DNA of 64,000 bases from Bdellovibrionota bacterium (lineage in GTDB: Bacteria; Bdellovibrionota; Bdellovibrionia; Bdellovibrionales; JAEYZS01): positions 85,464-149,463 of the forward strand of contig JAZKEU010000017.1 of the NCBI GenBank assembly GCA_040386775.1, given 5' to 3'. Shown piece by piece: positions 6,597-44,085 of this stretch. The position numbers and the translations under genes are program-made. The notes below the pieces were generated by a model. The model ran no database searches, was not told the origin of the DNA, and saw only the letters and a list, made by a program, of their open reading frames with translations. Every line of letters begins with the position of its first letter. The first letter of the stretch is position 1.

Positions 6597-7058
6597 ATGA
6601 AAATTTTAATTCTTGCATTTATATTGATGTTATCTCTTCAAGCCGTTGCGGCCCCTAGAGCTTACTACAGTAGTGATAAGAACAATTTTTTGATCAATGG
6701 AAGAGAAGCTTCAGGTCAAATTTGGGGATTCGGTTATCGAGTTCCTGGGGAATTTTCAAATAATATTAATGCTCATGAAATTTATAAAGACTATGTGATC
6801 GCAAAAAATTGGTCCGGCGTACTTTTGTGGGTTGGTTTCCCTTCATACATGATAGGGGCCTTTGATAATAATGATCGACTTTATATTGGTGGAGCAGCGG
6901 CATTTATTGTTGGAGCATTTTTGTCTCGTAGCGCTAACTTAAAGCTGCAAAAAGCCATTAATATTTACAATGGCGTGCCGTCAGATTTAGCAATTAAGAC
7001 TCGAGAGGAAAGATCTAATAATACTAATTATGCTCTCGGATGGAAATTTGAATTTTAG
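6597..7058 (+). CDS. Hypothetical secreted/membrane protein
   Basis: The M at 6597 is preceded by CAGAGG and followed by a signal peptide (MKILILAFILMLSLQAVAAP). Two internal hydrophobic segments. Ends GWKFEF. Confidence 0.5.
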   Translation: MKILILAFILMLSLQAVAAPRAYYSSDKNNFLINGREASGQIWGFGYRVPGEFSNNINAHEIYKDYVIAKNWSGVLLWVGFPSYMIGAFDNNDRLYIGGAAAFIVGAFLSRSANLKLQKAINIYNGVPSDLAIKTREERSNNTNYALGWKFEF

Positions 7059-7134
7059 AATTTTTTAACAACAATTTAGCAACTATTAAAAAAATAACTG
7101 GCACTGTATGTGCTCTATAAAAAGGAACAAACTT

Positions 7135-8400: not shown

Positions 8401-8420
8401 TTTTAGAATTTTAAAAACCA

Positions 8421-8490
8421 TTTTAGGCAAAAAAAAGCCAACCAGGAGAGGATCTTGGTCGGCTTTTCTAAATCGTGGAGCGATTTAAAG
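8421..8490 (+). repeat. Direct repeat copy 1 (about 70 bp) containing a terminator-like hairpin
   Basis: TTTTAGGCAAAAAAAAGCCAACCAGGAGAGGATCTTGGTCGGCTTTTCTAAATCGTGGAGCGATTTAAAG. The stem is GCCAACCAGGA/TCTTGGTCGGC followed by TTTT. It recurs at 9085-9155 with 3 substitutions and 1 extra A. Confidence 0.85.
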
Positions 8491-8622
8491 GCATTAAATC
8501 ATCTTTAATGTTAACTTTCCCTTCTGTATAAATTGAAACTACAGCTCCGCCAGTTAAGATTACATCAATATTATCTTTTTTGAGCTGGGATGCCACATAG
8601 AAAGCGAAATCTTTTATAGACA
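8467..8622 (-). pseudogene. Truncated remnant of a nucleotidyltransferase-like partner gene (51 codons)
   Basis: Hand translation gives MSIKDFAFYVASQLKKDNIDVILTGGAVVSIYTEGKVNIKDDLMPLNRSTI*. It resembles the N-terminus of nucleotidyltransferase-fold proteins that usually follow this kind of wHTH gene. The reading frame runs into repeat copy 1 and stops there. It is below the 60-aa cut-off of the ORF track. Confidence 0.35.
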
Positions 8623-8640
8623 TTTTTTTGTTAATAGAAT

Positions 8641-8970
8641 TCACAGCTCTTTACCTGTTCTTCTTGGGCGTCGACGTTGTCTGTAATACTTTTCTATTTC
8701 TTTAGAGCTAAGTAAGCCCAGAGCTTTTTCAAGTAGAGTTAATAATTCTTTTTTAAAAGAATACCTAGGATTAATTTGAAACATTTTGCTGTTACCGGCA
8801 AAGCGAGCAACTAGTATCCCTCCTTTTTCCAGTCTCAGTATTTGTTTTCTGACTTGAGACTTTGAAATACCAAATGTGTCAGCTATACCTGAAATATGAC
8901 CTTCGCCATAATTAGCTATATATAAAAGAACTTTTTCGGCTGTTGAATTTCCCACTAAGCTTTCAATCAT
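8641..8970 (-). CDS. Winged-helix (ArsR/MarR-like) DNA-binding protein, probable antitoxin-like regulator
   Basis: 109 aa. AEKVLLYIANYGEGHISGIADTFGISKSQVRKQILRLEKGGILV is a wHTH, followed by a basic tail RQRRRPRRTGKEL. Confidence 0.75.
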   Translation of the reverse strand: MIESLVGNSTAEKVLLYIANYGEGHISGIADTFGISKSQVRKQILRLEKGGILVARFAGNSKMFQINPRYSFKKELLTLLEKALGLLSSKEIEKYYRQRRRPRRTGKEL

Positions 8971-8990
8971 ATAAACCTTCAGTATCTAAA

Positions 8991-9018
8991 GTAGAACGAT
9001 CGTACTACTAAATAGTAC
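8991..9018. promoter_or_regulatory. Overlapping imperfect palindromes upstream of the wHTH gene (candidate operator)
   Basis: GTAGAACGATCGTACTAC (18-bp palindrome with 2 mismatches) overlaps GTACTA-ctaaa-TAGTAC. Both lie 20-50 bp upstream of the start at 8970. Confidence 0.3.
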
Positions 9019-9084
9019 ATTATAAAATCGGTAGTTTAAATGAGTTTCTTAAGCAGTTAGAGAATCATGGAATAGTAAGATCGA

Positions 9085-9155
9085 TTTTAGGCAAAAAAAA
9101 AGCCAACCAGGAGGGGATCTCGGTCGGCTTTTCTAAATCGTGGGGCGATTTAAAG
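9085..9155 (+). repeat. Direct repeat copy 2 (about 71 bp)
   Basis: TTTTAGGCAAAAAAAAAGCCAACCAGGAGGGGATCTCGGTCGGCTTTTCTAAATCGTGGGGCGATTTAAAG, near-identical to 8421-8490. Confidence 0.85.
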
Positions 9156-9485
9156 AGGGGTAACTGATTTCTATATATAGCAACCTTCGTGCCATCTACA
9201 ACAATTCTGCAACTATTTTTAAAATATCATGTAAAATCAAATATTTATCCTAACGATTTCCTAACTATTTAGAGATATGCTTTAATTAGCTTTTTGGTTC
9301 CAATTTGGGTATGAGTTTTTGGTTTTACATAACATTGTGAGCTACAGAAAAACAAAAACTTTAGTGATTCTAGTAAATTCGAGGCTTAACATATCCTAAG
9401 TGCCATCGTGAGACCTAAAACCAAACTAGACCCACCGTGAACCCGATGAATAACGGTAAAAGGTGCACCTAAAAGGATATCATCT

Positions 9486-13379: not shown

Positions 13380-14075
13380 TTATTTAAAGTTGATAGCGCG
13401 TTTTGTTTCTTGGCAAAGCTCACGAATATCTTTGTAACAAGTTTGAATGCAAGAATCCGCGTGTTTATTTATTTGCGAGATAACGCTATTTATTTCTGGA
13501 TCTTCGAATTTTTGTTGAGCAACTAATTCATGAAACTGACTCATGCTTTGAGAGAGGAAATTTTGATTTTCCTGGCATATTGCATATTCAGCACTCTCGC
13601 TCCCTTGAGCTATACCTAGAATACGCTTTGCTAGGCCTCTAGAATAATAAAAATTTGTATCGTCATAAGTGGGAGACCACCACAGTAATTCGTGAATGGC
13701 GTATTTTATTTTTCCTTCTTGATCGAGCGATGTCCATCCTCTTGCTTTGTTAGGATCGCAGTAAAGTTCTAGTCTATTTTTCTTTGGATGACTGCAGGCA
13801 ATTGGATTGTCAGTGTTTGGACACTTCTCGATTGGTTTTTCTTTTACGACGATCACAAAGTCCGGATTCCTTGACGGCTCTGCTACATTGAAAGCCTCTA
13901 GTAAGATTCTTAGATCTGTCGGTGTGGTGTTGTGCGAAGGTGCAGAAGATATCCAGGCCAAGGTATTCATAAAATCTTCTTTGCATGGATGGCCACCGCC
14001 GCCTCCCTCGTTAGCGCGATTTGCAAATGCAAATGATGTAGATAAACAAATAGCGATAAATATTATTTTTTTCAT
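13380..14075 (-). CDS. Secreted protein of unknown function (polyGly ... HE motif family)
   Basis: Signal peptide, then NEGGGGGH, and later QEGKIKYAIHELLWW. This parallels the 7135-8400 lipoprotein. 4-nt overlap with the upstream TIGR02147 gene. Confidence 0.65.
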   Translation of the reverse strand: MKKIIFIAICLSTSFAFANRANEGGGGGHPCKEDFMNTLAWISSAPSHNTTPTDLRILLEAFNVAEPSRNPDFVIVVKEKPIEKCPNTDNPIACSHPKKNRLELYCDPNKARGWTSLDQEGKIKYAIHELLWWSPTYDDTNFYYSRGLAKRILGIAQGSESAEYAICQENQNFLSQSMSQFHELVAQQKFEDPEINSVISQINKHADSCIQTCYKDIRELCQETKRAINFK

Positions 14076-14836
14076 GCAGGTTCTCTTTTTTCTAAAGACG
14101 TTACTGGATAAAGTTGTACAGCCAGATGGAAAACAGCATCGCCGTCACCATCTTCCATAAAAGCCGCTAATTCACGGCGGAATTTCTTAATTACATCTTT
14201 TACTTCAATTAATTTCTTGGAGTTCCCAGCAATAGTCATAGAAGTAATATCTTTTAAATCTTGTGGGCAGCCATCAATTGCGTGTAAAGATTTTTCTACA
14301 ATTTGTCTTTGGTATTCTTTATGAGCAGCGGAAGTGTCGCCTTCTTTATAATTTGAAAAACTCATTTGAGTTTTTACCAATTTGCTATCTTGTTCTGCTA
14401 AAAGCTCCAAGCGTTTTAAGCGATCTATAGCTATTGAAACTTCGGTCACGGAAATTCCTAACTGTTGTGCAATCCAAGACGGGTTGCTATCAAAGTTTTT
14501 TAATAATGTTAAATCCAAAATGGCGAAGTGATACCAATCAGATATTGCTGCAAATAAATCTTTGCTCAAGAGAGAGTATTTTTTCCCCATACTCTGTTGC
14601 AAATTTTCCGAATCAAAAACAAATGCCATTCCGATTTTACTCTCGATTTTTTCTAACATTGATTGTGATACTTTTCGCTTACCAGACAACATTTGTGAAA
14701 CTGTAGATGGGTCAAGTGCCAAACTTTTTGCGAAAGCTCTTAAAGAATAGCGAGAGTTCACTCTGCAGCGACGTGTGAATTCTTCTTGTAACCAAATTTT
14801 AAAATAACTAAGTTCGATAGGGCTTAAGTTTTTCAT
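14072..14836 (-). CDS. TIGR02147-family HTH protein (DUF4423-type), paralogue 2
   Basis: SYFKIWLQEEFTRRCRVNSRYSLRAFAKSLALDPSTVSQMLSGKRKVS matches the family signature. 254 aa. Confidence 0.8.
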   Translation of the reverse strand: MKNLSPIELSYFKIWLQEEFTRRCRVNSRYSLRAFAKSLALDPSTVSQMLSGKRKVSQSMLEKIESKIGMAFVFDSENLQQSMGKKYSLLSKDLFAAISDWYHFAILDLTLLKNFDSNPSWIAQQLGISVTEVSIAIDRLKRLELLAEQDSKLVKTQMSFSNYKEGDTSAAHKEYQRQIVEKSLHAIDGCPQDLKDITSMTIAGNSKKLIEVKDVIKKFRRELAAFMEDGDGDAVFHLAVQLYPVTSLEKREPA

Positions 14837-14883
14837 AGTGCTGCGCAGTATGAATGATTCGGCCTTTTATTTAAAGAAAAAAA

Positions 14884-14916
14884 GCCACAATGTGTGGCAT
14901 GAGACATGCCACACAT
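14884..14916. promoter_or_regulatory. GCCACA-atg-TGTGGC-atgagacat-GCCACA composite palindrome (candidate operator)
   Basis: ATGTGTGGCAT-gagac-ATGCCACACAT is a perfect 11-bp inverted repeat. It contains TGTGGC-N9-GCCACA, the same half-sites and spacing as at 13321-13341. It lies 50-80 bp upstream of the TIGR02147 start at 14836. Confidence 0.45.
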
Positions 14917-15024
14917 TTAAAATGCTGATTTTATTTAAATATTTAAAAATTAGATTCAGGTATTTTTTCCATGAACAGGATCAATACAGTCAAGATCAAC
15001 TCACTAAAGACTTACAAGGAGTTC

Positions 15025-15747
15025 TTACTGTTTTTTCTTACGTTGTTTGAGAAAAAAGTAGAGTCCTACGGCGATGAGGATGATTCCTAATCCGAAAATC
15101 TTTTCTTTCATTCCAGAGGCGCCTCCCTGTTCGTCGGGATATTCTAAGCCCTCATCCACCAGCATATCGCCTGGGAATGCGCCACCGATTGGCGCACCCA
15201 AAGATTCTGAGCCTGGTCTAATGGGAGCTAAGCCAGTGCCGATTTTATTGGGAGCATTCACTTTCAAACTTAAGATGGCTTTAAAGAAATCATTACTGAA
15301 TTTGGTATAAACTTTTTTGTGTGCACTGAAGGTGACAAGGACTGCGATGCTTTGTTTTGTCGTTGCTAAGTATCTCGTGTAGTAAGTTGAGATTTCGCTA
15401 CCGAGTTGTAGACCGTCAATCCAATCATGATCATTGATTTTGCGAGTCTTAACGCCTTTCAGTTGAGAGGGAATTGGTTTTCCTCCCGGGCCAGGGATGG
15501 ATTTTAATTGTTTAAGGTAGGCGTCGTAGTGTTGAAGAGAGTCGGTGGGTCCAACCTCTTTTGCAGTTAAAATAATGATCGCAGTTTGTGCATCAGATTT
15601 TTGTTCTGATCTGCAAATCCATTCTGTTGCTTCAGATTGGCAATCCCATTTTGCGGGTAATTCGAAACTCACGTATGAGTTTGAAAAAAGTTTTGCGTGA
15701 GAATTTAAAGAAAAGAATACGATGAATAAAACGAAGATGTGTTTCAT
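15025..15747 (-). CDS. Hypothetical secreted protein with a C-terminal membrane anchor
   Basis: Signal peptide (FVLFIVFFSLNSHA) and a C-terminal TM followed by a basic tail (IFGLGIILIAVGLYFFLKQRKKKQ). Confidence 0.6.
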   Translation of the reverse strand: MKHIFVLFIVFFSLNSHAKLFSNSYVSFELPAKWDCQSEATEWICRSEQKSDAQTAIIILTAKEVGPTDSLQHYDAYLKQLKSIPGPGGKPIPSQLKGVKTRKINDHDWIDGLQLGSEISTYYTRYLATTKQSIAVLVTFSAHKKVYTKFSNDFFKAILSLKVNAPNKIGTGLAPIRPGSESLGAPIGGAFPGDMLVDEGLEYPDEQGGASGMKEKIFGLGIILIAVGLYFFLKQRKKKQ

Positions 15748-15859: not shown

Positions 15860-17638
15860 TTATTGAGCAACTGCGCTCAACATGATTGAAGGATTACTTG
15901 CGGCTCTTACCGCGGCAGCAGCATCAACAACTTTTCCAGAAGTCAGTTTGCTTCTTAGGGCAGCAGATGATCTTCCTGAGTTCATGATGATTGCTTTCAC
16001 TTGTTCAGCTGTCAGATCTGGGTTTACAGACTTCACTAACGCTGCGATACCAGTAACTACAGGAGAAGCCATCGACGTTCCAGGGTAAGCAATGTAACTG
16101 CTAAGATCAGTCTGAGCGTATGTTGACCATAATGGACGCTCTCTTGTTCCACCTGGAGCAGCGATATCTACTGTTTTCAAACCGTAGTTTGAGTACTCAG
16201 TGAGAGAATCAGCTTCATCTGTTGCAGCTACTGCCAAAACATTTGATCCATCTTTGGAAGTTAAGAAAGATTCCACAGCATCCGTATTTGTAGTTTCATT
16301 TCCTGATGCCGCTACGATGAGGATTCCTTTTTGTTGTGCTTTTTTGATAGCGGCAAGAACCATTGGGCTCGCTTTTCCTTCGCCACCTAAAGACATGTTG
16401 ATCACATCTACATCCTGTTTAACAGCGTAGTATATTGCTGATACGATGGATGCTAAAGACCCACTTCCACTTGGCAACATCGCTTTTACAGGAAGGATTT
16501 TTGCTTTCTTTGCAATTCCAGATACGGAAGAGGCTGCTAATCCCGCAACGTGAGTTCCGTGCGATTCATCATCATATGGATATTGATCACCGATTGCGAA
16601 ATCCCAACCGTAGACGTCATCAATAAATCCGTTTTTGTCGTCGTCAACGCCGTTTCCTGCCACTTCTTTTTCATTGATTTTGATATTTTCACTTAAATCA
16701 GGGTGATTGTAGTTCACGCCTGAATCGATGATGGCGATGGTGACGCCTTCACCTTGAGTTGTTTGCCAAGCTTCTTCACCATTTACTAGCGGAACATGAA
16801 AGTATTTTTGGGCATTGTATTGTCCTTTATTTCCAATTCCTCCGACGAATTTTTTGTTGTGAGTAGCTCCAACCATCACTCCCGCAAGATCGCAAGCTTT
16901 TGTACTTGTGTCTTGTGCGATAAGTGCCACGAAGTAACCGCCTGGGCGATCTGGATTTACAGAAATCTTTGAGCCAGTTGCTTCTGCAAGAGTTGTAGAT
17001 CCAGGAGGGGCTTCAACGACCCAACTCAATTTTATGCTGGAAGCTGCTGCTTCCGGTGCAGTAGCGAATGGATTTTTAAATAAACCTTTTAATGGGTTCC
17101 AAATGCTGGATCCTTCTTCTGAAGTTTGCTGAGCGGCTTGAGTGAGTGTACCTTCGCCTCGAAACTCTAGAGCTACGCTTCCAACTTCGACAGTGTTTTG
17201 TGCCACCAAGTTGACTTCATTCGTCAATTGTAGCTTTGCAGCTGGGCCACCCAATGGAAGAAGTTTGCAGTCTAATTTATACAAAGCTTCTTCGATAGAT
17301 GCTCTCTTTGAAAAAGTCTCTCTGTTGTTCACATCGAAACCAGGATCTTTCATATTAATGTAGATATCTTCTTCTGCGTATGCAGCTGGCATTCTTTCTT
17401 GAACATCAACTAGCTTTGCATCTTGAATTTGATAGATGTTGTCTTCGCGACTCACAATAGTCACTTTGTTTGCTGGAAACAAAGCTTGAACCTCTTCTTG
17501 TGATTTAGATTCTGTTTGAACAACTACGCCATTTGATTTTTTGTTGAAAGGTCTTTGAGCCTTCCCGCAACCAACCTGCGCACTTACTCCCATTACACTT
17601 AGCACTAATAAAAGTGCACGTCCCCCAGTAGTAGCCAT
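15860..17638 (-). CDS. S8 family (subtilisin-like) serine protease lipoprotein
   Basis: Catalytic triad motifs AIIDSGVNYNHPD, HGTHVAG and GTSMASP. Lipoprotein-type signal LSVMGVSAQVGC. Confidence 0.9.
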   Translation of the reverse strand: MATTGGRALLLVLSVMGVSAQVGCGKAQRPFNKKSNGVVVQTESKSQEEVQALFPANKVTIVSREDNIYQIQDAKLVDVQERMPAAYAEEDIYINMKDPGFDVNNRETFSKRASIEEALYKLDCKLLPLGGPAAKLQLTNEVNLVAQNTVEVGSVALEFRGEGTLTQAAQQTSEEGSSIWNPLKGLFKNPFATAPEAAASSIKLSWVVEAPPGSTTLAEATGSKISVNPDRPGGYFVALIAQDTSTKACDLAGVMVGATHNKKFVGGIGNKGQYNAQKYFHVPLVNGEEAWQTTQGEGVTIAIIDSGVNYNHPDLSENIKINEKEVAGNGVDDDKNGFIDDVYGWDFAIGDQYPYDDESHGTHVAGLAASSVSGIAKKAKILPVKAMLPSGSGSLASIVSAIYYAVKQDVDVINMSLGGEGKASPMVLAAIKKAQQKGILIVAASGNETTNTDAVESFLTSKDGSNVLAVAATDEADSLTEYSNYGLKTVDIAAPGGTRERPLWSTYAQTDLSSYIAYPGTSMASPVVTGIAALVKSVNPDLTAEQVKAIIMNSGRSSAALRSKLTSGKVVDAAAAVRAASNPSIMLSAVAQ

Positions 17639-27746: not shown

Positions 27747-28016
27747 GAATGACGCAGTCTCAGTACGGAAAACTAGGGGGTACCTTTTTTTGGTCACTTT
27801 GCGGTTTTAGCGTGTTTAGAGTTTTGACAGGCTTTTTTTATTGTGATTTCAGATAGTTAGTGGTGGGTTAGATTAAGTGAGTTTTAAAACTTTATATCTT
27901 TAGTCGCGGTGTTTGTTGGTTAGGCAGTTTATAGGTTTTAAAATATCAGTGATTTCAGTAGCTTGTATTTATACCCAAATCTAGGTTTGGGTCTTTTTCT
28001 TGTAATGTATAATAGT

Positions 28017-28646
28017 ATGAGAGCCCTTCCTAAATTAAGGACCCTAGTCCTATCCATTCTAATAGCTTCATCGGTAGCACTTGTAGCGTGTCAGCCTAAG
28101 CTTCAGCCAGAAGAGGATTGTAACTTTGTAATGAGCTCTGACATTCAGCGTGTATCGTGGAAGAACAAACTGCCTGTGAAGCTTTATATCTCACCAGAGG
28201 TGCCTACAGAGCTTAGAGAATCAATTAGAATTGCCGCATCTAAATGGAACCTTGAAATTGGTAAAGAAGCTCTATTAATCTATGAGTCAGATAACATTCC
28301 TTCAACGGTTCAAAAAGACGGTATCAACGTAATCTATTGGGAAGAATCTTGGAGTTCAGGTAAAGCTTCGGAGCAAGCGCGTACCACCATCACTTGGAGA
28401 GGCGATACCATCAATGAAGCGGACATCCTCGTAAATGCAAAAGATCACAAATTCTCAGCGTTTGGAGAGATTGCGCCTGGTAAAATCGATTTCACAAGTT
28501 TGATGGTTCATGAGTTAGGGCATGTTTTAGGTTTACAACACGTATCAGGTGAGCCAAGCGTAATGGCGCCAACGCTCGCAGAAAATACGCCGCGGCTTAC
28601 AATTGAAGAAGTGGACGTTAACTCATTGAAATGTGAATACAATTAG
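28017..28646 (+). CDS. Matrixin-like (M10 family) zinc metalloprotease lipoprotein
   Basis: MVHELGHVLGLQHV is HExxHxxGxxH, followed by the SVM Met-turn. The M at 28017 precedes the lipobox SSVALVAC. The track ORF starts at 27963. Confidence 0.8.
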   Translation: MRALPKLRTLVLSILIASSVALVACQPKLQPEEDCNFVMSSDIQRVSWKNKLPVKLYISPEVPTELRESIRIAASKWNLEIGKEALLIYESDNIPSTVQKDGINVIYWEESWSSGKASEQARTTITWRGDTINEADILVNAKDHKFSAFGEIAPGKIDFTSLMVHELGHVLGLQHVSGEPSVMAPTLAENTPRLTIEEVDVNSLKCEYN

Positions 28647-31296: not shown

Positions 31297-31608
31297 TTAT
31301 GGAGATGCGATTTTGCGCTGAGCTGGGCTTTGGCTGGGTGTTGATTGACGGGAAGGTTTTTCGCAGTACTTTTTATGATAACTGGAGTCGCCCCAGCACA
31401 TCCAAGTATCACGGTACATAACGATTTCTCCTTGGCCAAGGTCGTAGTATCCTGGGTATTGGAGTGGATCTAAAGAGCTGATCACGATGCGTTCGCTTTT
31501 GGTTTCTTGATTTTGAATTACCAATTCAAAAACACGGTATTCGGCGAATGCTGAATTCACGAATATAAAAGACATTATCGTGATGAATAAAAAGAGGAGT
31601 ATTCTCAT
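31297..31608 (-). CDS. Small hypothetical secreted protein
   Basis: Signal peptide MRILLFLFITIMSFIFVNSAFA. 103 aa. No family recognised. Confidence 0.5.
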   Translation of the reverse strand: MRILLFLFITIMSFIFVNSAFAEYRVFELVIQNQETKSERIVISSLDPLQYPGYYDLGQGEIVMYRDTWMCWGDSSYHKKYCEKPSRQSTPSQSPAQRKIASP

Positions 31609-31680
31609 ACTCCTCTTTTCGGATTATTTTACTTTAGTATTTAGTGTCCGAATCGTAAAAACCAGTAAGGCACTTTTGAT

Positions 31681-34600
31681 TTAGAAGCAGGTTGGTCCTA
31701 CTCGGCACTCATAAGTTCTAGATTTATCTGATGGACAAGGAGCTACAGGCTGTGAAGCTGTGTCTCCAACAGGGGTACACGGTGTGCCAGTAAGGATTGG
31801 CCCAGGTATACCGCAGCCATAGTCTTCAAGTCCTGCGAAGCACCAGACTCCCATTACAACAGGAGGAGATGCGCTGCAACCTGCGTTGCTGCCGCCTCCA
31901 GAGCCATTGCAGTTCCAATTCCATGGGCCTGACCCCGTCACAGCAGAAGCTGTCCCACTTGAACAAAGATTTGTGGTTGGGGCTGAAGCAACCGTAGTTC
32001 CATTCGCTGTTCCGCATGCACCATTCACCATTGCTCCTACGCTAGCAGAACAGCCAGCATCTCCGCCTCCCCCTGAGCCCTCACAGCTCCAACTCCATGG
32101 GCCAGCGCCAGTCACTGCAGAGGCTGTCCCACTCGAACAAAGATTTGTGGTTGGGGCCGATGCAACGGCAGTCCCATCGGCAGTTCCGCAAACGCCGTTG
32201 ATGACAGGGATAGAATAAGATTTACTACAATCAGCGCTGGTGCCGCTTCCAGTTCCTGCACATGACCATGTCCAAGGGCCAGAGCCTGACACAGCAGAAG
32301 CTGTTCCTGCATTACACAATGAGGTAGGCGCTGTAGGGCCAGAGGTTCCATGATCACTGCCGCAAGCTCCGTTTGTTCCTCCGCATGTAATGCATTCGAT
32401 GTTTCCTTGGGTGCATACTACTCCAATCGGTAGAAGCCTTTGGAAATACTGTTGGTCTCCAACATTTGTACATGCAGTTCCGATTAAGTTAGGAACTCCA
32501 TGTGCCGTAGTATAACCATTGTAACCGCAGCCGCTAGATGGCCCCGGAGAGCACTCGGCGTTTGATCCGAAGCAGCTCCAGCAACCGGCAGTACATGCGC
32601 CAACAGAGCAGTTTTGATTTGTGAATGAACCGCTTAAAACCCCATTGGTGCAAGTTCGGTTTTCTGAAATGCAAGTGCTCGCGCAGGCTACGGAACTTGT
32701 CTGATAAGCTGTAACGCTAGTTCCATTTGGAATCTCAGTTCCCCAAGGTGTTTGGCAGTCAGTACATGGCGTTGTACTCGCAGGCATTGGTCCAATACAG
32801 CAAGATGTTGGACAATTTACAGTTCGAGTTCTCACTGCACCAACGCAAGCACCCCATGCACCGACGTTCCAGTTTGAACATGGTGTGCAACTTGTCGGCC
32901 CTTGTGGGCTGCCAATTCCTGAAGTGCAGGAGTTAAGAGCTGGACAATAAACCGGAGAGCAATCGTTTGCGGCAGGAGAGCTGTTATTCGTAGGACATGT
33001 ACAAATATTCCCTGTGCAAGTAGGGCCTCCAGCTTCTGCAGAAGTTACGCCGTAACTTGGATCTTCGCAGTCAACTGCAGTTGTGCAGGCGGTACCTTCT
33101 TTGGCGCAAGTGTTGAAACACTTTCCTGTTCTTGAACAATAAGATCCTGCTTCGCAAACATTTCCGCCTCTTTGTGTTCCGCCGTAACGGAAGCAATGAT
33201 TGGCCGCGGGGGGGAATGTATGAGGAACGCTGGTTAGAGGTGTCGAGTATCTCATCGGAGGAGTCGTGTTCTGTTGATATCTACCACAAGGATCTACGAC
33301 AATGGCGCAAAAATTACCGGAAGGATCTTGGGTGCAACCAGAGTTGGTCATGCTATTCCATCCGCCTGTACCACATACTGTTCCTAGTGTAGGAGTAAAA
33401 GTTGCATCCAAATTAGGACATAATGTAGAAACCCCACAAGCTTTGGCAGGTGCAGTAGCCGCGGTAATGACCGATGCAAAACTTGGAATCGGTGTCGAAA
33501 AATTTTCTGCCGGTGAGTAAGTTGCACCAACGGTAGCTGTGGAATCCAAGCACCAACTTTGCACAGGTATCGCCTGAAGTGTTCCACAATTATTTTCAGC
33601 AGAGAGAGAAAGTGTATAACCACCTTCCGAAGCCACGGCAGGAAGTCTTGCGGTACAATCTACTCCTACACAGTTACAGCCGGGAATTACACCCGGAGCG
33701 GCACTTGGTATTATTGTTGTAGCACCACTGGGACTTGTTAATAAGCCGCTGCAATTATGTGAGATTGAAGAGGGGCCTGGTGGTAACGGTGGAGTATAAA
33801 CAACACTTCCTATGAATACTGGCGCTCCACCTTGACATTGAAATTTGCCTCCTGCAAATGCAACCATAGCGTCCGTATATTTTGGTGCAGATGTTCCAGT
33901 TAGACTTGGTGCAAAGCTTCCCACAGCATTTCCCGCATTTGCAACGTGATTTGTATTGTCAGATATAGGGCCCATGACAGGAACTGAATCAATGATGGAG
34001 AAGTGGGCCGGTGAAGCAGAAGAGCAACTTGGAGATCCATTGGCTGGATTACAAAAAGAAGGTCCAACATTTCCAGATGTATCAACAGTTCTTACATCGA
34101 CAACATAACCTTTCATAGAGCGAAGGCCTGAGAGAGTCAGAATTGCATTTGCTGTTCTTTGTGTATTGCCATTGCCAGAGACAAGGGGCTGATACGATAT
34201 TGAAACATTTCCTGCCGTAGTGCCATCAGAGTCTTTCACAGTTGCATTTTCGCAAGGTTCCCATACGTTCGCATTGGTAGGATCATCAAACCAAGTTTTT
34301 TCTCCAATTCTACATAGGAAAGCAGTTCCTGGTTCTGACTCTAGACAAGCAGCACACGCAGCATTATTGAATGAATCAAATAAATCCGGTCCGGCCCCGG
34401 TGGCATCAGAACATGTTGTAGAGTTAATCTGTTGTTGGCAGTTTGTTTGGCAGGCAGTTCCTGCATTGCTTTTGAAAGTTCTTATCGCAATTTGTACAGG
34501 CGCAGGAGCTCCGCAAATCGCAGGGGATATAATTCCAGGTCCACAGAGATTTTGGTATTGAATCAGAGTCAATGCAGGAGTTGTATCCATTGTTCTTTGG

Positions 34601-35322
34601 ACAGTTCCTGTTCCAGTGCAAGATTTTTCTTGATCGGTTCCTCGTTGGATGGTTACACGCACTTTAAATTCTGCTCGTGTAGTGTCTTGTGAGCTAGGGA
34701 GGTCGGCCATGGCAAGTCTTCGAGCTGTACAAGGGATACCATCAAAATCTACAGCAAGATCTATTTCTACGTTTCTATCTGTGATTGTAAATCCTGGTCT
34801 GGGAGTGGAATCGTCGTAGAATCTTTCACCGCAGTTGGGGCCCATGTCCAGGCCATTGCAGCAGAAGTTTCCGCTGGCCGCTAGGGCAATGAGTCTATTC
34901 GTAGAATTTTTAATGTTGAGATAGTTAAAATATTTCCATGGAGGAGGAATTTGAGTTGCTGTTGGTGGTAAACTCAATGTACCTGTTCCGGTGTATATAG
35001 GAATGGGCGTAGAGGTGAATCTAAATCTATCAATGCCATCGTCAGTTTGATCAAGGCCTTGTGGAAAATCTACGCCGCCAGCAGGACCATATGAAGAAAT
35101 AAACAGAGAGGTTTCATCTTTTTTGATATATTCCACAAGAGAGTTTGCAATATTTTGGCAGCTCCCTGCAATCTCGATTCTTTTTGAAAGTCTACTCTGA
35201 TCGCTAACAACATAGGCAACAGTCATTGCTATTGTTATGACCAATGCGGCGGCGATAAGTGCCCCCACTAAACCAACCCCACGTTGATTTAAAAATAATG
35301 TAATTAATTTATTTTTCTTCAT
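31681..35322 (-). CDS. Giant cysteine-rich surface protein with a PilX_N-like N-terminal anchor
   Basis: 1213-aa ORF. The N-terminus NQRGVGLVGALIAAALVITIAMTVAYVV resembles the PilX N-terminal / pseudopilin-like anchor (no Glu at +5). About 82 Cys by hand count. The rest is rich in G, T, S, P and A. Three C-terminal tandem repeats. Confidence 0.75.
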   Translation of the reverse strand: MKKNKLITLFLNQRGVGLVGALIAAALVITIAMTVAYVVSDQSRLSKRIEIAGSCQNIANSLVEYIKKDETSLFISSYGPAGGVDFPQGLDQTDDGIDRFRFTSTPIPIYTGTGTLSLPPTATQIPPPWKYFNYLNIKNSTNRLIALAASGNFCCNGLDMGPNCGERFYDDSTPRPGFTITDRNVEIDLAVDFDGIPCTARRLAMADLPSSQDTTRAEFKVRVTIQRGTDQEKSCTGTGTVQRTMDTTPALTLIQYQNLCGPGIISPAICGAPAPVQIAIRTFKSNAGTACQTNCQQQINSTTCSDATGAGPDLFDSFNNAACAACLESEPGTAFLCRIGEKTWFDDPTNANVWEPCENATVKDSDGTTAGNVSISYQPLVSGNGNTQRTANAILTLSGLRSMKGYVVDVRTVDTSGNVGPSFCNPANGSPSCSSASPAHFSIIDSVPVMGPISDNTNHVANAGNAVGSFAPSLTGTSAPKYTDAMVAFAGGKFQCQGGAPVFIGSVVYTPPLPPGPSSISHNCSGLLTSPSGATTIIPSAAPGVIPGCNCVGVDCTARLPAVASEGGYTLSLSAENNCGTLQAIPVQSWCLDSTATVGATYSPAENFSTPIPSFASVITAATAPAKACGVSTLCPNLDATFTPTLGTVCGTGGWNSMTNSGCTQDPSGNFCAIVVDPCGRYQQNTTPPMRYSTPLTSVPHTFPPAANHCFRYGGTQRGGNVCEAGSYCSRTGKCFNTCAKEGTACTTAVDCEDPSYGVTSAEAGGPTCTGNICTCPTNNSSPAANDCSPVYCPALNSCTSGIGSPQGPTSCTPCSNWNVGAWGACVGAVRTRTVNCPTSCCIGPMPASTTPCTDCQTPWGTEIPNGTSVTAYQTSSVACASTCISENRTCTNGVLSGSFTNQNCSVGACTAGCWSCFGSNAECSPGPSSGCGYNGYTTAHGVPNLIGTACTNVGDQQYFQRLLPIGVVCTQGNIECITCGGTNGACGSDHGTSGPTAPTSLCNAGTASAVSGSGPWTWSCAGTGSGTSADCSKSYSIPVINGVCGTADGTAVASAPTTNLCSSGTASAVTGAGPWSWSCEGSGGGGDAGCSASVGAMVNGACGTANGTTVASAPTTNLCSSGTASAVTGSGPWNWNCNGSGGGSNAGCSASPPVVMGVWCFAGLEDYGCGIPGPILTGTPCTPVGDTASQPVAPCPSDKSRTYECRVGPTCF
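31867..32382 (-). repeat. Three tandem 54-60-aa four-cysteine repeats at the C-terminus of the giant protein
   Basis: The repeat is NG-x-CG-x-A-x-G ... P-T-x-x-LC-x-x-GTASAV-x-G-x-GPW-x-W-x-C-x-G-x-G ... C-S. Units 2 and 3 share the identical stretch VASAPTTNLCSSGTASAVTG. Confidence 0.8.
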
Positions 35323-35592
35323 ATTAATACTTTCTTAATAGAATAAGATTTTGTCAGCTTAAATTATATACTTATCGGCTGTCTATACCGCTGGACATAA
35401 GTCTTGCTGAATTTTCTCTGAATAATAATCTGTATTCTAATAAGACAGGGAGACGTTTGGAGTGTCTCATATTGAAACGCACTAAAGAAGATGAGTGCTA
35501 ATTATTAAAAGAATAGGCTGCCACTCACGAAAGATAAATATCTTAGTGGAAAATAATATGAGTATTTAGAATTTACTTTTTAAAGTTTAAGC

Positions 35593-36014: not shown

Positions 36015-36926
36015 TTGCAACAAAAATCAATTGTGTTTGACATGCGCAGTCAGACGCGAGTGAATAGTAAGGTGAGCGGTAAAAAGAAAAAATCTAAAAA
36101 ATCAAGAGACTCTCAAGGACAAAGAACTCCAATCATCATCGATGAAAGTCGAGGTTGGATTTTTAATGACGAAAATGATGTGGTTGCGCACTTCAGAGAG
36201 CAAATCGAAATTCTCGAAAAAGAATATCATGAGTGGCGTCCTGAAACCGACATCAACTTGGATGAGATCGAAAACATTGATCAGCATCTCTCTGAACTTT
36301 TACAAGAACCCGATGAGGTCTGGTTGTCGACAACAACTCTTAAAGGAATTTCTTTAGGAACTTTTGTTGGATATTTTGAGGCTGAAGAAGAAGACATTAG
36401 TTTTTATTATATCACGCTGACATACTTTGTAGATAATATTCCGCGTTTTGTGTTCTTGCATTTTGCGACAACAGATTTAAATCTTGTAAAAAAATATCAA
36501 CGTGGTGAAAAAATTTATGATCGTAATAATCAAGAGATTCAATCTGATGAAGAAGCCGTGGATGCTTTGACGGAAGGTGATGAATTGGCGGTTGGTCTTT
36601 ATGGTGCGATGTTAAAGCTGAGAAATCAAACGGATATTCCTGAGAATGAATTTCCGAGCTACATCAAGCACCGCGAGGAAACAATTGAAGAGCCCGATGA
36701 GATCTGGAGAAAAATTGATTCTGAAGGTCGTATTTTAGTGAGTTTTGTTAAATCCATCGAAGATGCTGGAGATGTAAAATACATTGTTGTGACCACTGAA
36801 GATGAAGCTTCGGAAAGCCAATACTTATTATTTTCATTCCCAACAAAAGATCCAAATCTAGTGGATAGATACAAGCAGGGCGAATCGGTAGATGCAGCTT
36901 CATATACTCGGGAAGAATCGCATTAG
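36015..36926 (+). CDS. Hypothetical acidic protein
   Basis: 303-aa ORF (TTG per the track, alternative ATG at 36042). Basic N-terminal tail followed by a highly acidic body. No family recognised. Confidence 0.5.
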   Translation: MQQKSIVFDMRSQTRVNSKVSGKKKKSKKSRDSQGQRTPIIIDESRGWIFNDENDVVAHFREQIEILEKEYHEWRPETDINLDEIENIDQHLSELLQEPDEVWLSTTTLKGISLGTFVGYFEAEEEDISFYYITLTYFVDNIPRFVFLHFATTDLNLVKKYQRGEKIYDRNNQEIQSDEEAVDALTEGDELAVGLYGAMLKLRNQTDIPENEFPSYIKHREETIEEPDEIWRKIDSEGRILVSFVKSIEDAGDVKYIVVTTEDEASESQYLLFSFPTKDPNLVDRYKQGESVDAASYTREESH

Positions 36927-42735: not shown

Positions 42736-44085
42736 TCAGTTAAGAGTCTTTTCATTTTTATCTGCGATTGTATTTAAAAGTTGGTTCAACTGATTCAGTT
42801 GTTGTGAGAGAGCTGGGTTACGGTTGTTGTTGTCCACAACGGCTGTTGTGTTTGATAAAATTTGATTCGAAGTTGGAGCTGCGATTCCACTCACCGGAAC
42901 TGCTGGATGGATTGCAAGAGCTGCCCAAGAATTTAAAATCCCTGAGGTCTGAGTTTTGGTGAACATGGTAGCTCTTGTGTCTGCTGTTGCTAAAATTTGA
43001 TTCTTAATTTGTTTGAAATCCATATCTGAATTGTTGGCCTTAAGTAATGCAGCCACACCGCTCACGAAAGCGGTTGCTTGTGATGTTCCTGTCATTGTCC
43101 CGTATCTGCTTCCTGGGAGTGTAGAATAAATTCCTTCGCCTGGAGCCGCGATATGCACAGTCTTCATTCCATAATTGCTACTTTGTAAAACATTGGCGTC
43201 AGCATTGATTGCAGTCACAGAGATGATATTTGGTAAATTGTAGTTTGCAGGGTAGTAGTGAGCCTTATCTGAATTTGACTTTTCATTGCCGGCTGCTGCC
43301 ACAAAGATAATTCCAGCATCGTTAGCTCTTTTTACTGCATCATATTCTGTTTGAGAATAATCAAGTCCGCCACCAGAGTAATTGATGATATCGACTTTTT
43401 TGTCTACGGCGTAGTGAATAGATTTGATTGTGTTTTTTAGGTTGTCTGTTCCTGGAGCTTTTGGATCATAATATTTTAAGATCATAAGGCTGACTTTTGG
43501 TGAAACTCCGCTGATACCGATTCCGTTTCCGCCTTCGGCACCTACGATACCAGCAATGTGTGTCCCGTGACCGTGGTTATCAGTAAGATTTCCAGTTCCT
43601 GTGATGAAATTACAACCATGGATATCGTCAATACAACCATTCTGATCGTCGTCAATTCCAGTCTTACCATTTTTTTCTGCTTCGTTAACCCAAAGGTTAT
43701 TCTTGATATCAGGGTGATTAATATCGATACCTGTATCGATGATTGCTACCACTACTTTTCTTGAACCTGTAGTGATATTCCAAGCTTTGTCGACGTTGAT
43801 GTCTGATAAACCACCTGTTCCAAGTAGTCCCCAATTTTTCTTAATTGCGGGGTCATTTAAAAGTACGCTTTGTTCTTTTTTAATTTGTTTTACAACTTTT
43901 GGTGTACTGAGGGATGGAATTCTTAAAGACTCTTCGTTATAGAGCATTCCCATTTCAACGGTTTTCCAAACACAGAATGATCCAATAACTAAAGCTAAGC
44001 CTAAGCATGCAGCTTGAGTTCGACGATATTTCTTGTCGCTTAATCTTACGATGAATGCCTTTTTGTCTTTGAGTTGAAATGCCAT
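42736..44085 (-). CDS. S8 family (subtilisin-like) serine protease, membrane-anchored
   Basis: Triad motifs VAIIDTGIDINHPD, HGTHIAG and GTSQATA. A single N-terminal TM. Confidence 0.9.
   Translation of the reverse strand: MAFQLKDKKAFIVRLSDKKYRRTQAACLGLALVIGSFCVWKTVEMGMLYNEESLRIPSLSTPKVVKQIKKEQSVLLNDPAIKKNWGLLGTGGLSDINVDKAWNITTGSRKVVVAIIDTGIDINHPDIKNNLWVNEAEKNGKTGIDDDQNGCIDDIHGCNFITGTGNLTDNHGHGTHIAGIVGAEGGNGIGISGVSPKVSLMILKYYDPKAPGTDNLKNTIKSIHYAVDKKVDIINYSGGGLDYSQTEYDAVKRANDAGIIFVAAAGNEKSNSDKAHYYPANYNLPNIISVTAINADANVLQSSNYGMKTVHIAAPGEGIYSTLPGSRYGTMTGTSQATAFVSGVAALLKANNSDMDFKQIKNQILATADTRATMFTKTQTSGILNSWAALAIHPAVPVSGIAAPTSNQILSNTTAVVDNNNRNPALSQQLNQLNQLLNTIADKNEKTLN

What the first reader, a model, noticed from the sequence alone, without database searches (positions are those of the whole stretch)
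31681..35322. 1213-aa protein with about 80 cysteines, anchored by a PilX_N/pseudopilin-like N-terminus and standing alone without pilus genes
This is the largest gene in the window.
- **N-terminus:** MKKNKLITLFLNQRGVGLVGALIAAALVITIAMTVAYVV. The R-G followed by a long hydrophobic helix resembles PilX N-terminal / minor-pilin-like anchors, but lacks the Glu5 of true type IV pilins.
- **Body:** G/T/S/P/A-rich with about 82 Cys by my count, often in CxC, CC and CxxC clusters.
- **Thrombospondin-like stretch:** CSNWNVGAWGACVGAVRTRTVNC recalls the W-x-x-W ... C ... R-x-R-x-C pattern of thrombospondin type-1 repeats. This is tentative.
- **C-terminus:** three tandem four-Cys repeats.

No pilin, secretin or ATPase genes are adjacent. 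In a predator-like genome, a disulfide-stabilised, pilus- or envelope-anchored giant protein is a plausible prey-recognition adhesin, but no characterised family fits.

It is followed on the same strand, with short gaps, by a small secreted protein, the ACD fusion protein and a carbonic anhydrase, so these may be co-transcribed.
Basis: partly seen in the sequence, partly recalled or inferred. Interest (0 to 1): 0.65.

Follow-up and report, generated by a model that had tools for sequence, protein, structure and literature searches.

The report
Giant cysteine-rich pilin-like surface protein
This 1213-residue, 82-cysteine protein from an uncultured Bdellovibrionota bacterium belongs to a small undescribed family whose N-terminus descends from type IV pilins, so it is most likely a bulky adhesin carried at a pilus tip, but that role is untested.

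Summary
The ORF lies at 31681-35322 on the minus strand and encodes 1213 aa with 82 Cys. It has the quoted N-terminus, a TSP1-like stretch and three 4-Cys repeats, and no pilus genes lie within about 15 kb.

The protein itself has no Pfam or NCBIfam match. It is identical to MES2769606.1, annotated "hypothetical protein" in a Bdellovibrionota MAG.

An exhaustive profile search found about 20 full-length relatives. The named ones are from Bdellovibrionales and Oligoflexia.
- Across the family the N-terminus grades from canonical prepilin signals (G|FSLIE, which pass TIGR02532 or PF07963) to the query's G|VGLVG.
- The Gly at -1 is invariant. Glu+5 is lost, as in the tip pilins GspK and PilX.
- AlphaFold2 (pLDDT 82) gives a single 50-residue helix straight after that Gly, followed by beta-rich and FN3-like domains.

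The C-terminal third is a shuffled set of modules: a shortened TSP1_ADAMTS-like unit (hhalign 96.5%), a widespread 4-Cys repeat also found on a canonical pilin, and a fast-diverging tail.

Best reading: a modular pilin-like protein lacking Glu5, displayed as an adhesin at the tip of a type IV filament. Processing, assembly and any role in prey binding are inferred, not shown.

It is a new variant of a known kind, of moderate interest.

The parts
31681..35322 (-). Whole gene: 1213-aa protein with 82 Cys. Identical to MES2769606.1, annotated 'hypothetical protein' in a Bdellovibrionota MAG.
35278..35322 (-). Leader, aa 1-15 (MKKNKLITLFLNQRG). It ends in Gly15, the putative -1 residue of a prepilin-peptidase site.
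   Evidence: Gly15 is invariant in 24 family sequences that are 25-97% identical to the query. A PDB profile search aligns it in register with the G|F site of the geopilin prepilin and with residue 1 of mature PilE1, but only at marginal E-values (0.03-0.07).
35122..35271 (-). Alpha1-like helix, aa 18-67. Its first part, aa 16-39, is an uncharged 24-residue hydrophobic segment with Gly, not Glu, at +5. It also holds the conserved Cys55 and the IANSxVEYIKKDE motif.
   Evidence: AlphaFold2 model mc6c39fdb7658 shows a single helix H18-67, with pLDDT about 67-69 for aa 20-50 and 88-90 for aa 51-70; alignments.
34348..35121 (-). N-terminal beta-rich domain(s), aa 68-325, with conserved Cys pairs. 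This is the candidate pilin head or first Ig-like domains.
   Evidence: Model pLDDT is mostly 83-92 (two 10-residue blocks are lower: 66 at aa 261-270, 57 at aa 301-310), with strands at 166-285. Foldseek found no significant PDB match.
33988..34347 (-). FN3-like beta-sandwich, aa 326-445 (motif YVVDVRxVDTxGNVG).
   Evidence: Model pLDDT is mostly 83-95 (one 10-residue block, aa 381-390, is 77). The profile matches FN3-type domains in the PDB weakly (8pn5, E 0.017; 2edy; 1k85). In one search, profile positions of about 380-470 hit repeated domains of large proteins.
32887..33987 (-). Rest of the conserved family core, aa 446-812. It contains further beta domains and a Cys-rich region (aa 700-812).
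   Evidence: It is conserved in all 9 close and about 10 distant relatives. The full-core model has low confidence here, although that model resembles chains of Ig/FN3 domains such as SiiE.
32755..32880 (-). Shortened TSP1_ADAMTS-like unit, aa 815-856, with 7 Cys in this range (6 from the WxxGxW motif onward).
   Evidence: BLASTP against L002 proteins. Those proteins pass PF19030. hhalign gives probability 96.5%, E 8e-10. Pfam itself does not hit the query.
32593..32754 (-). 'PWGxxIxNGxSVTAYQ...RTCxNGxLSG' module, aa 857-910. It is shared with other secreted proteins of the lineage and with P0034.
32371..32592 (-). Cys-rich linker module, aa 911-984. It is shared only with P0001 and P0002.
31876..32370 (-). 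Three tandem 4-Cys repeats (G-x-CG-x3-G...LC-x2-GT-x-S-x-V-x-G-x-GPW-x-W-x-C...C) at aa 985-1032, 1043-1091 and 1101-1149.
   Evidence: The repeat has no Pfam model. It is widespread in secreted proteins of candidate phyla radiation (CPR) bacteria and Proteobacteria, and it occurs on a canonical pilin, P0089.
31684..31863 (-). C-terminal 60-aa tail with 6 Cys, aa 1154-1213. This is the fastest-diverging part.
   Evidence: It is 40% identical to the ortholog, against 88-100% for the other regions, and BLASTN finds no match over 31681-31885.
31590..31619 (-). Conserved hairpin plus T-run between the gene and the next ORF. It looks like a terminator and encloses the ribosome-binding site and ATG of the 103-aa ORF.
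   Evidence: dG -24.8 kcal/mol, z -3.7; conserved in L004 while the flanks diverge
35113..35387 (-). A block of about 275 nt (65 nt upstream of the ATG plus the first 210 nt of coding sequence) that is 99.6% identical to the ortholog locus.
   Evidence: (dS 0.02 against 0.23-0.6 elsewhere)

Best explanation
The gene encodes a giant, disulfide-rich, modular pilin-like protein.

**Proposed mechanism.**
1. The N-terminus (a 15-residue polar leader ending in Gly, then a 24-residue hydrophobic stretch that begins a 50-residue helix) is a degenerate type IV pilin class III signal. It inserts the protein into the inner membrane with the bulk in the periplasm, where up to 41 disulfides can form.
2. 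A prepilin peptidase cuts after Gly15.
3. The alpha1 helix docks into a type IV filament (T4aP or a related machine encoded elsewhere in the genome).
4. Position +5 is Gly rather than Glu, as in the tip subunits GspK and PilX, and the ectodomain is about 120 kDa. The protein could therefore sit only as the first subunit, at the tip.
5. From the tip it would project a rod of beta-sandwich/FN3-like domains. That rod ends in exchangeable Cys-rich modules (TSP1-like unit, 4-Cys repeats, variable tail) that bind a ligand on another surface, possibly prey.

**Shown:** the pilin ancestry of the N-terminus, the long helix, the beta-rich and FN3-like core, the module sharing, purifying selection, and the absence of linked pilus genes.

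**Inferred:** cleavage, incorporation into a filament, tip location, adhesion and the nature of the ligand.
For: **Pilin ancestry of the N-terminus.**
- A profile of the 10 Glu5-less close relatives, searched against 1.84 billion proteins, finds about 20 full-length relatives plus shorter ones.
- Their N-termini form a graded series: G|FSLIE (P0023, P0025), G|FSLQE (P0024), G|IGLIE (P0020), G|LGLAE (P0019), G|FGLIE (P0031, P0034), G|FSLVE (P0039), G|xGLIA, G|VGLIQ and the query's G|VGLVG.
- P0023, P0025, P0031, P0034 and P0039 reach the TIGR02532 cut-off. P0031, P0034 and P0039 reach the PF07963 cut-off.

**Cleavage-site glycine.**
- Gly15 is one of only 7 invariant columns in a 24-sequence alignment that goes down to 25% identity.

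**Structure.**
- The AlphaFold2 model of aa 1-460 has mean pLDDT 82.2 and pTM 0.77. It shows a single helix at 18-67, then beta-rich domains and an FN3-like sandwich.
- A PDB profile search aligns the family N-terminus in register with the geopilin prepilin and mature PilE1, at marginal E-values of 0.03-0.07.

**Literature precedent.**
- GspK and PilX lack Glu5, are the largest pilins and sit at the filament tip (PMC7541494, PMC5207764).
- Modular pilins that carry adhesive modules are widespread and probably tip-exposed (PMC8179133).
- Predators use large, disulfide-rich minor pilins with variable C-terminal domains, encoded away from the machinery, as interchangeable pilus tips (PMC12075869).

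**Adhesin-like body.**
- FN3/Ig-like chain.
- TSP1_ADAMTS-like unit.
- A 4-Cys repeat that also occurs on a canonical FTLIELL pilin, P0089.
- C-terminal modules differ among paralogs and orthologs, and the tail is the most divergent part.

**A real, functional, native gene.**
- dN/dS is about 0.13 and GC3 equals the background.
Against: - The query itself matches no pilin model (PF07963, PF14341, TIGR02532) even at permissive E-values.
- It lacks Glu5 and has Gly at +2.
- No pilus machinery or partner minor pilins lie near the gene in the window or near 8 homolog loci.
- The presence of a prepilin peptidase and a pilus system in this genome could not be checked.
- Passage of a 120-kDa ectodomain with about 41 disulfides through a secretin is unproven.
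- The Thr-Val-Ala sequence at aa 34-36 would also fit the -3/-1 rule of signal peptidase I.
Confidence: 0.5

Rival explanations
1. The protein is a bitopic envelope protein. The pilin-derived N-terminus now serves only as an uncleaved inner-membrane signal-anchor. The Cys-rich ectodomain stays in the periplasm, for example as a structural or envelope-spanning scaffold, and never enters a filament.
For: - Glu5, which is needed for recruitment and assembly of most pilins, is lost (PMC5207764).
- No pilin HMM matches the query.
- No pilus genes are linked at any locus examined.
- No pilin head fold was detected.
Against: - Gly at -1 is invariant across the whole family although Glu5 varies. That is hard to explain if cleavage were irrelevant.
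- The body is built from modules typical of extracellular adhesins (FN3-like, TSP1-like, and a 4-Cys repeat shared with secreted proteins and a true pilin).
- The distal tail evolves fastest, which suggests contact with an outside ligand.
Confidence: 0.25
2. The protein is an ordinary Sec-secreted protein. The first 36 or so residues form a long but conventional signal peptide, removed by signal peptidase I after Thr-Val-Ala36. The mature Cys-rich protein is then released to the periplasm or exported by another route.
For: - The N-region is positively charged (KKNK).
- A small-residue pattern [T/V]-V-[A/S] at aa 34-36 recurs in many close relatives.
- No pilin HMM matches the query.
Against: - The hydrophobic stretch is 24 residues with no helix breaker before the putative site.
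- The model continues as one helix to residue 67.
- The -3 residue is Phe or Met in some relatives.
- Distant homologs carry canonical prepilin motifs at the aligned position.
- The invariant Gly lies before, not after, the hydrophobic core.
Confidence: 0.1
3. The protein is a GspK-like cap of a type II secretion pseudopilus, not a surface pilus adhesin. The bulky subunit lacking Glu5 would prime or limit a periplasmic pseudopilus.
For: - It lacks Glu5 and is large, as in the GspK family (PMC5207764).
- Distant relatives give weak NCBIfam hits to GspI, GspJ, GspH and XpsI N-termini.
Against: - It matches no GspK domain model.
- It is not in a gsp operon.
- There are two paralogs per genome with different C-terminal modules.
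- A 1200-aa rod with adhesin-type modules is far larger than needed for a pseudopilus cap.
Confidence: 0.1

Closest known systems
Modular type IV pilins (e.g. Streptococcus sanguinis PilB and PilC, ETEC CofB; Raynaud et al. 2021, PMC8179133)
   Same: A pilin-type N-terminus is followed by bulky non-pilin modules with likely ligand-binding roles. A tip location is expected. The same 4-Cys repeat is found grafted on a canonical pilin, P0089.
   Different: - The query is not detected by IPR012902-type models and lacks Glu5.
- It is larger (1213 aa) than the most extreme multi-domain example quoted in that survey (860 aa).
- It has 82 Cys and an 800-aa core matched by no Pfam or NCBIfam model.
- No pilus locus is nearby.
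GspK / PilX family of minor (pseudo)pilins lacking Glu5
   Same: It has a non-acidic residue at +5, would be larger than the other pilins of its system, and is inferred to be the first, tip-most subunit (PMC7541494, PMC5207764). The 'QRG' before the hydrophobic helix resembles PilX/GspK leaders; this last point is from my own knowledge, not a test.
   Different: - It has no HMM match to PilX_N or GspK domains.
- It is not encoded at the end of a minor-pilin operon.
- The family includes members that retain Glu5.
- The body is a long beta-sandwich rod, not an alpha-domain insertion.
KilN / TadG large minor pilins forming interchangeable 'Tips' on Tad/Kil pili of predatory bacteria (Herrou et al. 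2025, PMC12075869)
   Same: Both are large pilin-like proteins in a predatory lineage, with many predicted disulfides and a variable C-terminal domain. Both have several paralogs encoded away from the machinery and are proposed to tune target range.
   Different: - KilN has a TadE/G-type N-terminus and is encoded with KilL and KilM partners. Here the canonical relatives carry GF(S/G)L(I/V)E-type signals (PilD class), and the gene stands alone.
- No sequence similarity between the two was found.
PilY1 / PilC tip adhesins of T4aP
   Same: They are similar in size (about 1000-1200 aa), have variable modules and are presumed tip adhesins.
   Different: PilY1 is not a pilin. It has a type I signal and a C-terminal beta-propeller (IPR008707), and it needs PilX and other minor pilins for display. 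The query has neither the propeller nor a Sec-type signal; it would combine carrier and adhesin in one chain.
Thrombospondin type 1 repeats of the ADAMTS type (PF19030) in bacterial secreted proteins
   Same: Residues 815-856 align with Pfam-positive TSP1_ADAMTS domains of neighbouring genes in a related MAG (hhalign 96.5%). They keep WxxGxW, the TR(T/P) motif and 6 Cys.
   Different: Two deletions (6 and 8 residues) remove the CSxTCG segment and a loop. The stretch is below Pfam detection.

Membership tests
Type IV pilin / class III signal peptide proteins (PF07963 N_methyl, TIGR02532, IPR012902) | Short polar leader ending in Gly at -1 | tested here: met
   MKKNKLITLFLNQRG|V. Gly15 is invariant in 24 family sequences.
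Type IV pilin / class III signal peptide proteins (PF07963 N_methyl, TIGR02532, IPR012902) | About 20 uncharged hydrophobic residues directly after the Gly, forming the start of a helix of about 50 residues (alpha1) | tested here: met
   Residues 16-39 are uncharged. AlphaFold2 gives a single helix at 18-67.
Type IV pilin / class III signal peptide proteins (PF07963 N_methyl, TIGR02532, IPR012902) | Glu at position +5 of the mature protein | tested here: not met
   The query has Gly20. Close relatives have G or Q, others have A. Distant relatives P0019, P0020, P0023-25, P0029, P0031, P0034 and P0039 have Glu.
Type IV pilin / class III signal peptide proteins (PF07963 N_methyl, TIGR02532, IPR012902) | Score above the curated cut-off of the N-terminal methylation-motif models | tested here: not met
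   The query has no hit, even for the isolated 80-aa N-terminus at E<=10. Homologs P0023, P0025, P0031, P0034 and P0039 reach TIGR02532; P0031, P0034 and P0039 reach PF07963.
Type IV pilin / class III signal peptide proteins (PF07963 N_methyl, TIGR02532, IPR012902) | Globular head: antiparallel beta-sheet packed on the C-terminal half of alpha1 | tested here: inconclusive
Type IV pilin / class III signal peptide proteins (PF07963 N_methyl, TIGR02532, IPR012902) | Cleavage and N-methylation by a prepilin peptidase; polymerisation into a filament | not testable with these tools
   This needs a PilD processing assay and analysis of the pilus fraction.
Type IV pilin / class III signal peptide proteins (PF07963 N_methyl, TIGR02532, IPR012902) | Genetic linkage to type IV filament machinery or other pilins (usual, not obligatory) | tested here: not met
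   None were found in the window from 15.8 to 50.3 kb or at the loci of P0003, P0004, P0005, P0009, P0013, P0020, P0025, P0034 and P0039. The two ORFs after P0024 look pilin-like by eye only.
GspK / PilX tip minor pilins | Non-acidic residue at +5 and larger size than the other pilins | tested here: met
   Gly20; 1213 aa. The criterion comes from PMC5207764 and PMC7541494.
GspK / PilX tip minor pilins | Match to PilX_N (PF14341) or GspK domain models | tested here: not met
   No Pfam hit at E<=10 on the N-terminal 80 aa or on the whole protein.
GspK / PilX tip minor pilins | Encoded within a minor-pilin or gsp operon | tested here: not met
   It is a stand-alone gene.
TSP1_ADAMTS (PF19030) | Pfam model above the gathering score | tested here: not met
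   No hit on aa 685-980 at E<=10.
TSP1_ADAMTS (PF19030) | Homology to bona fide (Pfam-positive) domains; W-x-x-W, R-x-R and 6 Cys | tested here: met
   hhalign against 4 Pfam-positive bacterial domains gives probability 96.5%, E 8e-10, with two deletions. BLASTP gives E 4e-18 over 112 aa, including the adjacent module.
TadG / KilN large minor pilins of Tad pili | TadE-type N-terminus and a cluster with TadE/TadF-like genes | tested here: not met
   There is no TadE/Tad Pfam hit. Canonical relatives carry GFxLxE-type motifs. No neighbouring pilin genes were found.
Sec / signal peptidase I secreted proteins | Hydrophobic region of 7-15 residues followed by a helix-breaking c-region with small residues at -3 and -1 | tested here: inconclusive
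   The hydrophobic run is 24 residues and the helix continues to residue 67. T-V-A at 34-36 fits the -3/-1 rule but is not conserved. No signal-peptide predictor was available.

The most novel reading that the evidence does not exclude
The family is a Bdellovibrionota-specific set of single-chain pilus tips. Each protein would fuse the Glu5-less priming pilin (the PilX/GspK role) to its own adhesin (the PilY1/KilN role). Paralogs and orthologs would swap C-terminal Cys-rich modules (TSP1-like units, 4-Cys repeats, a hypervariable tail, and Hint/intein-like domains in some members) to retarget the pilus to different prey surfaces.
Probability: 0.2. Interest if true: 0.75.

Novelty: new variant of a known kind. 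Interest (0 to 1): 0.45.

Why it matters
If the reading is right, this family extends the modular-pilin idea in three ways. It reaches an extreme size (a 120-kDa body with about 41 disulfides). It combines carrier and adhesin in one chain. It occurs in an uncultured branch of a predatory phylum, where pili are known to be needed for prey attachment and entry but the molecules that touch the prey are poorly known.

It also shows that pilin-like proteins whose signal has drifted (Glu5 lost, Gly at +2) escape the standard models. Surveys based on IPR012902 or PF07963 therefore undercount them.

The graded series of N-termini within one family is a natural experiment on which residues of the class III signal are dispensable.

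If the reading is wrong, the gene is simply an unannotated Cys-rich envelope protein of a MAG.

Tried and rejected
- **Direct family searches.** Pfam and NCBIfam scans of the whole protein and of four segments gave nothing real. The only line was a 17-bit BspB hit far below its cut-off.
- **Horizontal transfer as the cause of the high G+C.** Rejected. The excess is all at codon position 2, and GC3 equals the background.
- **Recent DNA-level duplication of the repeats.** Rejected. TRF finds nothing, and repeats 2 and 3 are 72% identical in DNA.
- **Structural RNA in the near-identical 5' block or elsewhere in 31.0-36.1 kb.** No Rfam match at E<=1.
- **First structure prediction.** The full 812-aa core with a 10-sequence alignment was poor (pLDDT 54.5), so its fold matches are only indicative. 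The second, with 24 sequences and aa 1-460, was good but gave no significant PDB match.
- **Looking for pilus genes beside homologs.** None were found. The two ORFs after P0024 have pilin-looking N-termini (…KKAFSLVELAL…, …TRGGGATILLVFF…), but no HMM or hhalign support was found, so they remain a lead only.
- **Third word-indexed homolog search, using the family profile.** It added only an Oligoflexia fragment with a name.
- **Solved structures for the C-terminal 414 aa.** No match.

Full report
**1. Observation**

The ORF is real. It lies at 31681..35322 on the minus strand, starts with ATG and encodes 1213 aa. It is the longest ORF in the window.
- **Composition.** It has 82 Cys (6.8%), and G, T, S, A and P make up 51% of residues. 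Cys density is highest in residues 700-1000.
- **Public record.** The protein is identical to MES2769606.1, 'MAG: hypothetical protein [Bdellovibrionota bacterium]', on a 339-kb contig.
- **G+C.** The gene's G+C (47.7% against 39.1% for the window) is explained by amino-acid composition. GC2 is 0.62, but GC3 is 0.33 against 0.35 for 52 other ORFs. There is no sign of foreign origin.
- **Selection.** Against the 90%-identical ortholog in L004, dN/dS is about 0.13, so the gene is under purifying selection.

**2. No described family matches directly**

Pfam and NCBIfam give no meaningful hit. This holds for the whole protein, the isolated 80-aa N-terminus, the core and the C-terminal segments, even at E<=10.

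**3. The family**

- **Close relatives.** A word-indexed search of 5.8 billion proteins finds only nine true relatives. In one-genome-per-species GTDB, they occur in two 'Bdellovibrionales bacterium' MAGs with two paralogs each.
- **Conserved core.** Residues 1-812 form a conserved core with about 40 invariant Cys. The C-terminal parts differ in length and content.
- **Wider family.** An exhaustive HMMER search with a profile of that core against 1.84 billion representatives gives 43 hits. About 20 are full-length relatives down to E 1e-37. There are also shorter proteins that match only the first 80-250 positions.
- **Taxonomy.** One distant member, P0029, is labelled Oligoflexia, another class of Bdellovibrionota.
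- **Annotation.** Every source name is 'hypothetical protein'.

**4. The N-terminus descends from type IV pilins**

The N-termini, aligned on the invariant Gly, run as follows:

| Motif | Members |
|---|---|
| G\|VGLVG | query, P0001 |
| G\|IGLVG, G\|MGLIG, G\|FGIIG | close relatives |
| G\|VGLIQ | P0008 |
| G\|VGLIA, G\|MGLIA | P0013, P0015, P0017 |
| G\|LGLAE | P0019 |
| G\|IGLIE | P0020 |
| G\|LGISE | P0029 |
| G\|FSLQE | P0024 |
| G\|FSLIE | P0023, P0025 |
| G\|FGLIE | P0031, P0034 |
| G\|FSLVE | P0039 |

- **Model thresholds.** P0023, P0025, P0031, P0034 and P0039 reach the curated threshold of TIGR02532. P0031, P0034 and P0039 reach that of PF07963.
- **Not circular.** The profile that retrieved these proteins was built only from Glu5-less sequences. 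Its matches also extend through the conserved 'SC-x-x-IA-x-x-V-x-x-YI-K' segment after the hydrophobic stretch. This is homology, not hydrophobic bias.
- **Invariant glycine.** In a 24-sequence alignment reaching 25% identity, Gly15 is one of seven invariant columns.
- **PDB register.** A PDB profile search aligns the family N-terminus in register with the geopilin prepilin (…KKG|FTLIELL…) and with residue 1 of mature S. sanguinis PilE1. The E-values are only marginal, 0.03-0.07.
- **Conclusion.** The query carries a degenerate class III-type signal. The -1 Gly and the hydrophobic helix are kept, but Glu+5 is lost.

**5. Structure**

- **First model.** With 10 sequences, the 812-aa core modelled poorly (pLDDT 54.5). 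Its best PDB matches were chains of Ig/FN3 domains such as the adhesin SiiE.
- **Second model.** With 24 sequences, residues 1-460 gave mean pLDDT 82.2 and pTM 0.77. The model shows one uninterrupted helix at 18-67, a beta-rich region (aa 68-325, pLDDT mostly 83-92) and a beta-sandwich at 326-445.
- **FN3-like domain.** The motif 'Y-x-V-D-V-R-A-V-D-T-x-G-N' in that sandwich matches FN3-type domains weakly.
- **Helix length.** A 50-residue helix starting right after the conserved Gly is the hallmark of pilins.

**6. The C-terminal third is a cassette of shuffled extracellular modules**

- **TSP1-like unit.** Residues 815-856 align with TSP1_ADAMTS domains (PF19030-positive) of three secreted PKD-containing proteins that flank paralog P0003 in L002. 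BLASTP gives E 4e-18 over 112 aa. hhalign between the two small alignments gives probability 96.5%, E 8e-10, with two deletions.
- **PWG…LSG module.** The next module recurs in those proteins and in P0034.
- **4-Cys repeat.** It has no Pfam model. It is widespread in small secreted proteins of candidate phyla radiation (CPR) bacteria, Alphaproteobacteria and Desulfuromonadales. It co-occurs with fn3, CARDB and Flg_new_2 domains. It also occurs on P0089, a canonical FTLIELL pilin.
- **Hint domains.** P0004 and P0013 carry Hint/intein-like domains in this variable region.
- **Tail.** The last 60 residues (6 Cys) are only 40% identical between the query and its ortholog, against 88-100% for the other regions.

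**7. Genomic context**

- **Window.** No pilin, secretin, ATPase or peptidase gene lies between 15.8 and 50.3 kb. No other ORF in the window has a class-III-like start.
- **Homolog loci.** The loci of P0003, P0004, P0005, P0009, P0013, P0020, P0025, P0034 and P0039 also lack pilus genes. They fall into at least three unrelated syntenic settings.
- **A lead only.** After the distant member P0024 come two ORFs whose N-termini look pilin-like by eye. No HMM or hhalign result supports this.
- **Downstream hairpin.** A 12-13-bp hairpin with a T-run lies 62 nt downstream of the stop codon. It encloses the GAGGAG ribosome-binding site and ATG of the 103-aa ORF, and it is conserved in L004 while the flanks diverge. 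This argues for termination, or for occlusion of the next ORF's start, rather than simple co-transcription.

**8. Mechanism**

- **Literature.** GspK and PilX are the pilins that lack Glu5, are the largest of their sets and cap the filament. Lack of Glu5 plus bulk is proposed to restrict a subunit to the tip (PMC7541494, PMC5207764). Modular pilins with grafted adhesive modules are widespread and thought to be tip-exposed (PMC8179133). In predatory Myxococcus, large disulfide-rich minor pilins with variable C-terminal domains, encoded in several loci away from the machinery, form interchangeable pilus tips that set prey range (PMC12075869).
- **Best-supported reading.** This protein is a modular pilin-like subunit lacking Glu5. 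It would be cut after Gly15 and mounted as the first subunit of a type IV filament, presenting a beta-sandwich rod and Cys-rich distal modules as an adhesin.
- **Rivals that cannot be excluded.** (a) A pilin-derived, uncleaved membrane anchor that holds a periplasmic protein. (b) Cleavage by signal peptidase I near residue 36. (c) A cap on a T2SS pseudopilus.

**9. Verdict**

The query fails two membership criteria of type IV pilins (Glu5 and the HMM threshold), so it is not filed as a pilin. It is a divergent derivative that probably works like a tip pilin-adhesin: a new variant of a known kind.

Interest is moderate. It is not surprising in principle, since many modular pilins are known. It is, however, an undescribed, unusually large, Cys-rich family confined to an uncultured predatory lineage, and its function can be tested.

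Noticed in passing
window 31590-31619 (minus strand): A perfect 12-13-bp hairpin (AAAAGAGGAGTAT/ATACTCCTCTTTT) with a T-run lies between the giant gene and the 103-aa ORF. It contains that ORF's GAGGAG ribosome-binding site and its ATG. It is conserved in L004 while the flanks diverge (dG -24.8 kcal/mol, z -3.7). It could be a terminator, a translational occluder, or both.
   Followed up: partly
window 35113-35387: About 275 nt (65 nt upstream of the ATG plus the first 210 nt of coding sequence, i.e. leader and alpha1) are 99.6% identical to the ortholog locus L004. The rest of the gene has dS 0.23-0.6. Identity along the gene is mosaic, at 76-82% for nt 1800-2700. This suggests recombination or strong nucleotide-level constraint. 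There is no Rfam match.
   Followed up: partly
P0004 (JGI 3300050046) and P0013 (L015:10001-13633): Two family members carry Hint/intein-like domains (three in P0004) inside the variable Cys-rich C-terminal region, reminiscent of bacterial intein-like domains in variable secreted proteins. These two genes and P0003 are each followed by a Y1_Tnp-type transposase gene.
   Followed up: no
L002:3744-5657, 6790-9483, 13840-15600 (all minus strand): Three secreted proteins of a Bdellovibrionales MAG combine PKD, TSP1_ADAMTS (PF19030, above threshold) and the 4-Cys repeat, and they flank paralog P0003. Bacterial TSP1_ADAMTS domains in a predator lineage may deserve their own look.
   Followed up: partly
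L013:13277-14086 and 14133-14990: Directly after the distant family member P0024 (canonical G|FSLQE) lie two ORFs with N-termini that look pilin-like by eye (…NTRGGGATILLVFFVSVVFV… and …NKKAFSLVELALSMGG…). This may be a minor-pilin cluster, but neither ORF matched any Pfam or NCBIfam model (E<=1), and hhalign against the family profile was not significant.
   Followed up: partly
window 36015-36926 (+): The 303-aa protein has a PBECR2 domain (phage-Barnase-EndoU-ColicinE5/D-RelE-like nuclease 2, E 2.5e-12). In L004 a 448-aa and a 139-aa ORF are inserted next to its ortholog.
   Followed up: no
window 27963-28646 (+), 15860-17638 (-), 42736-44085 (-): A matrixin-like metalloprotease and two subtilases lie around the locus, which fits a secreted-hydrolase-rich, predator-like genome.
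   Followed up: no
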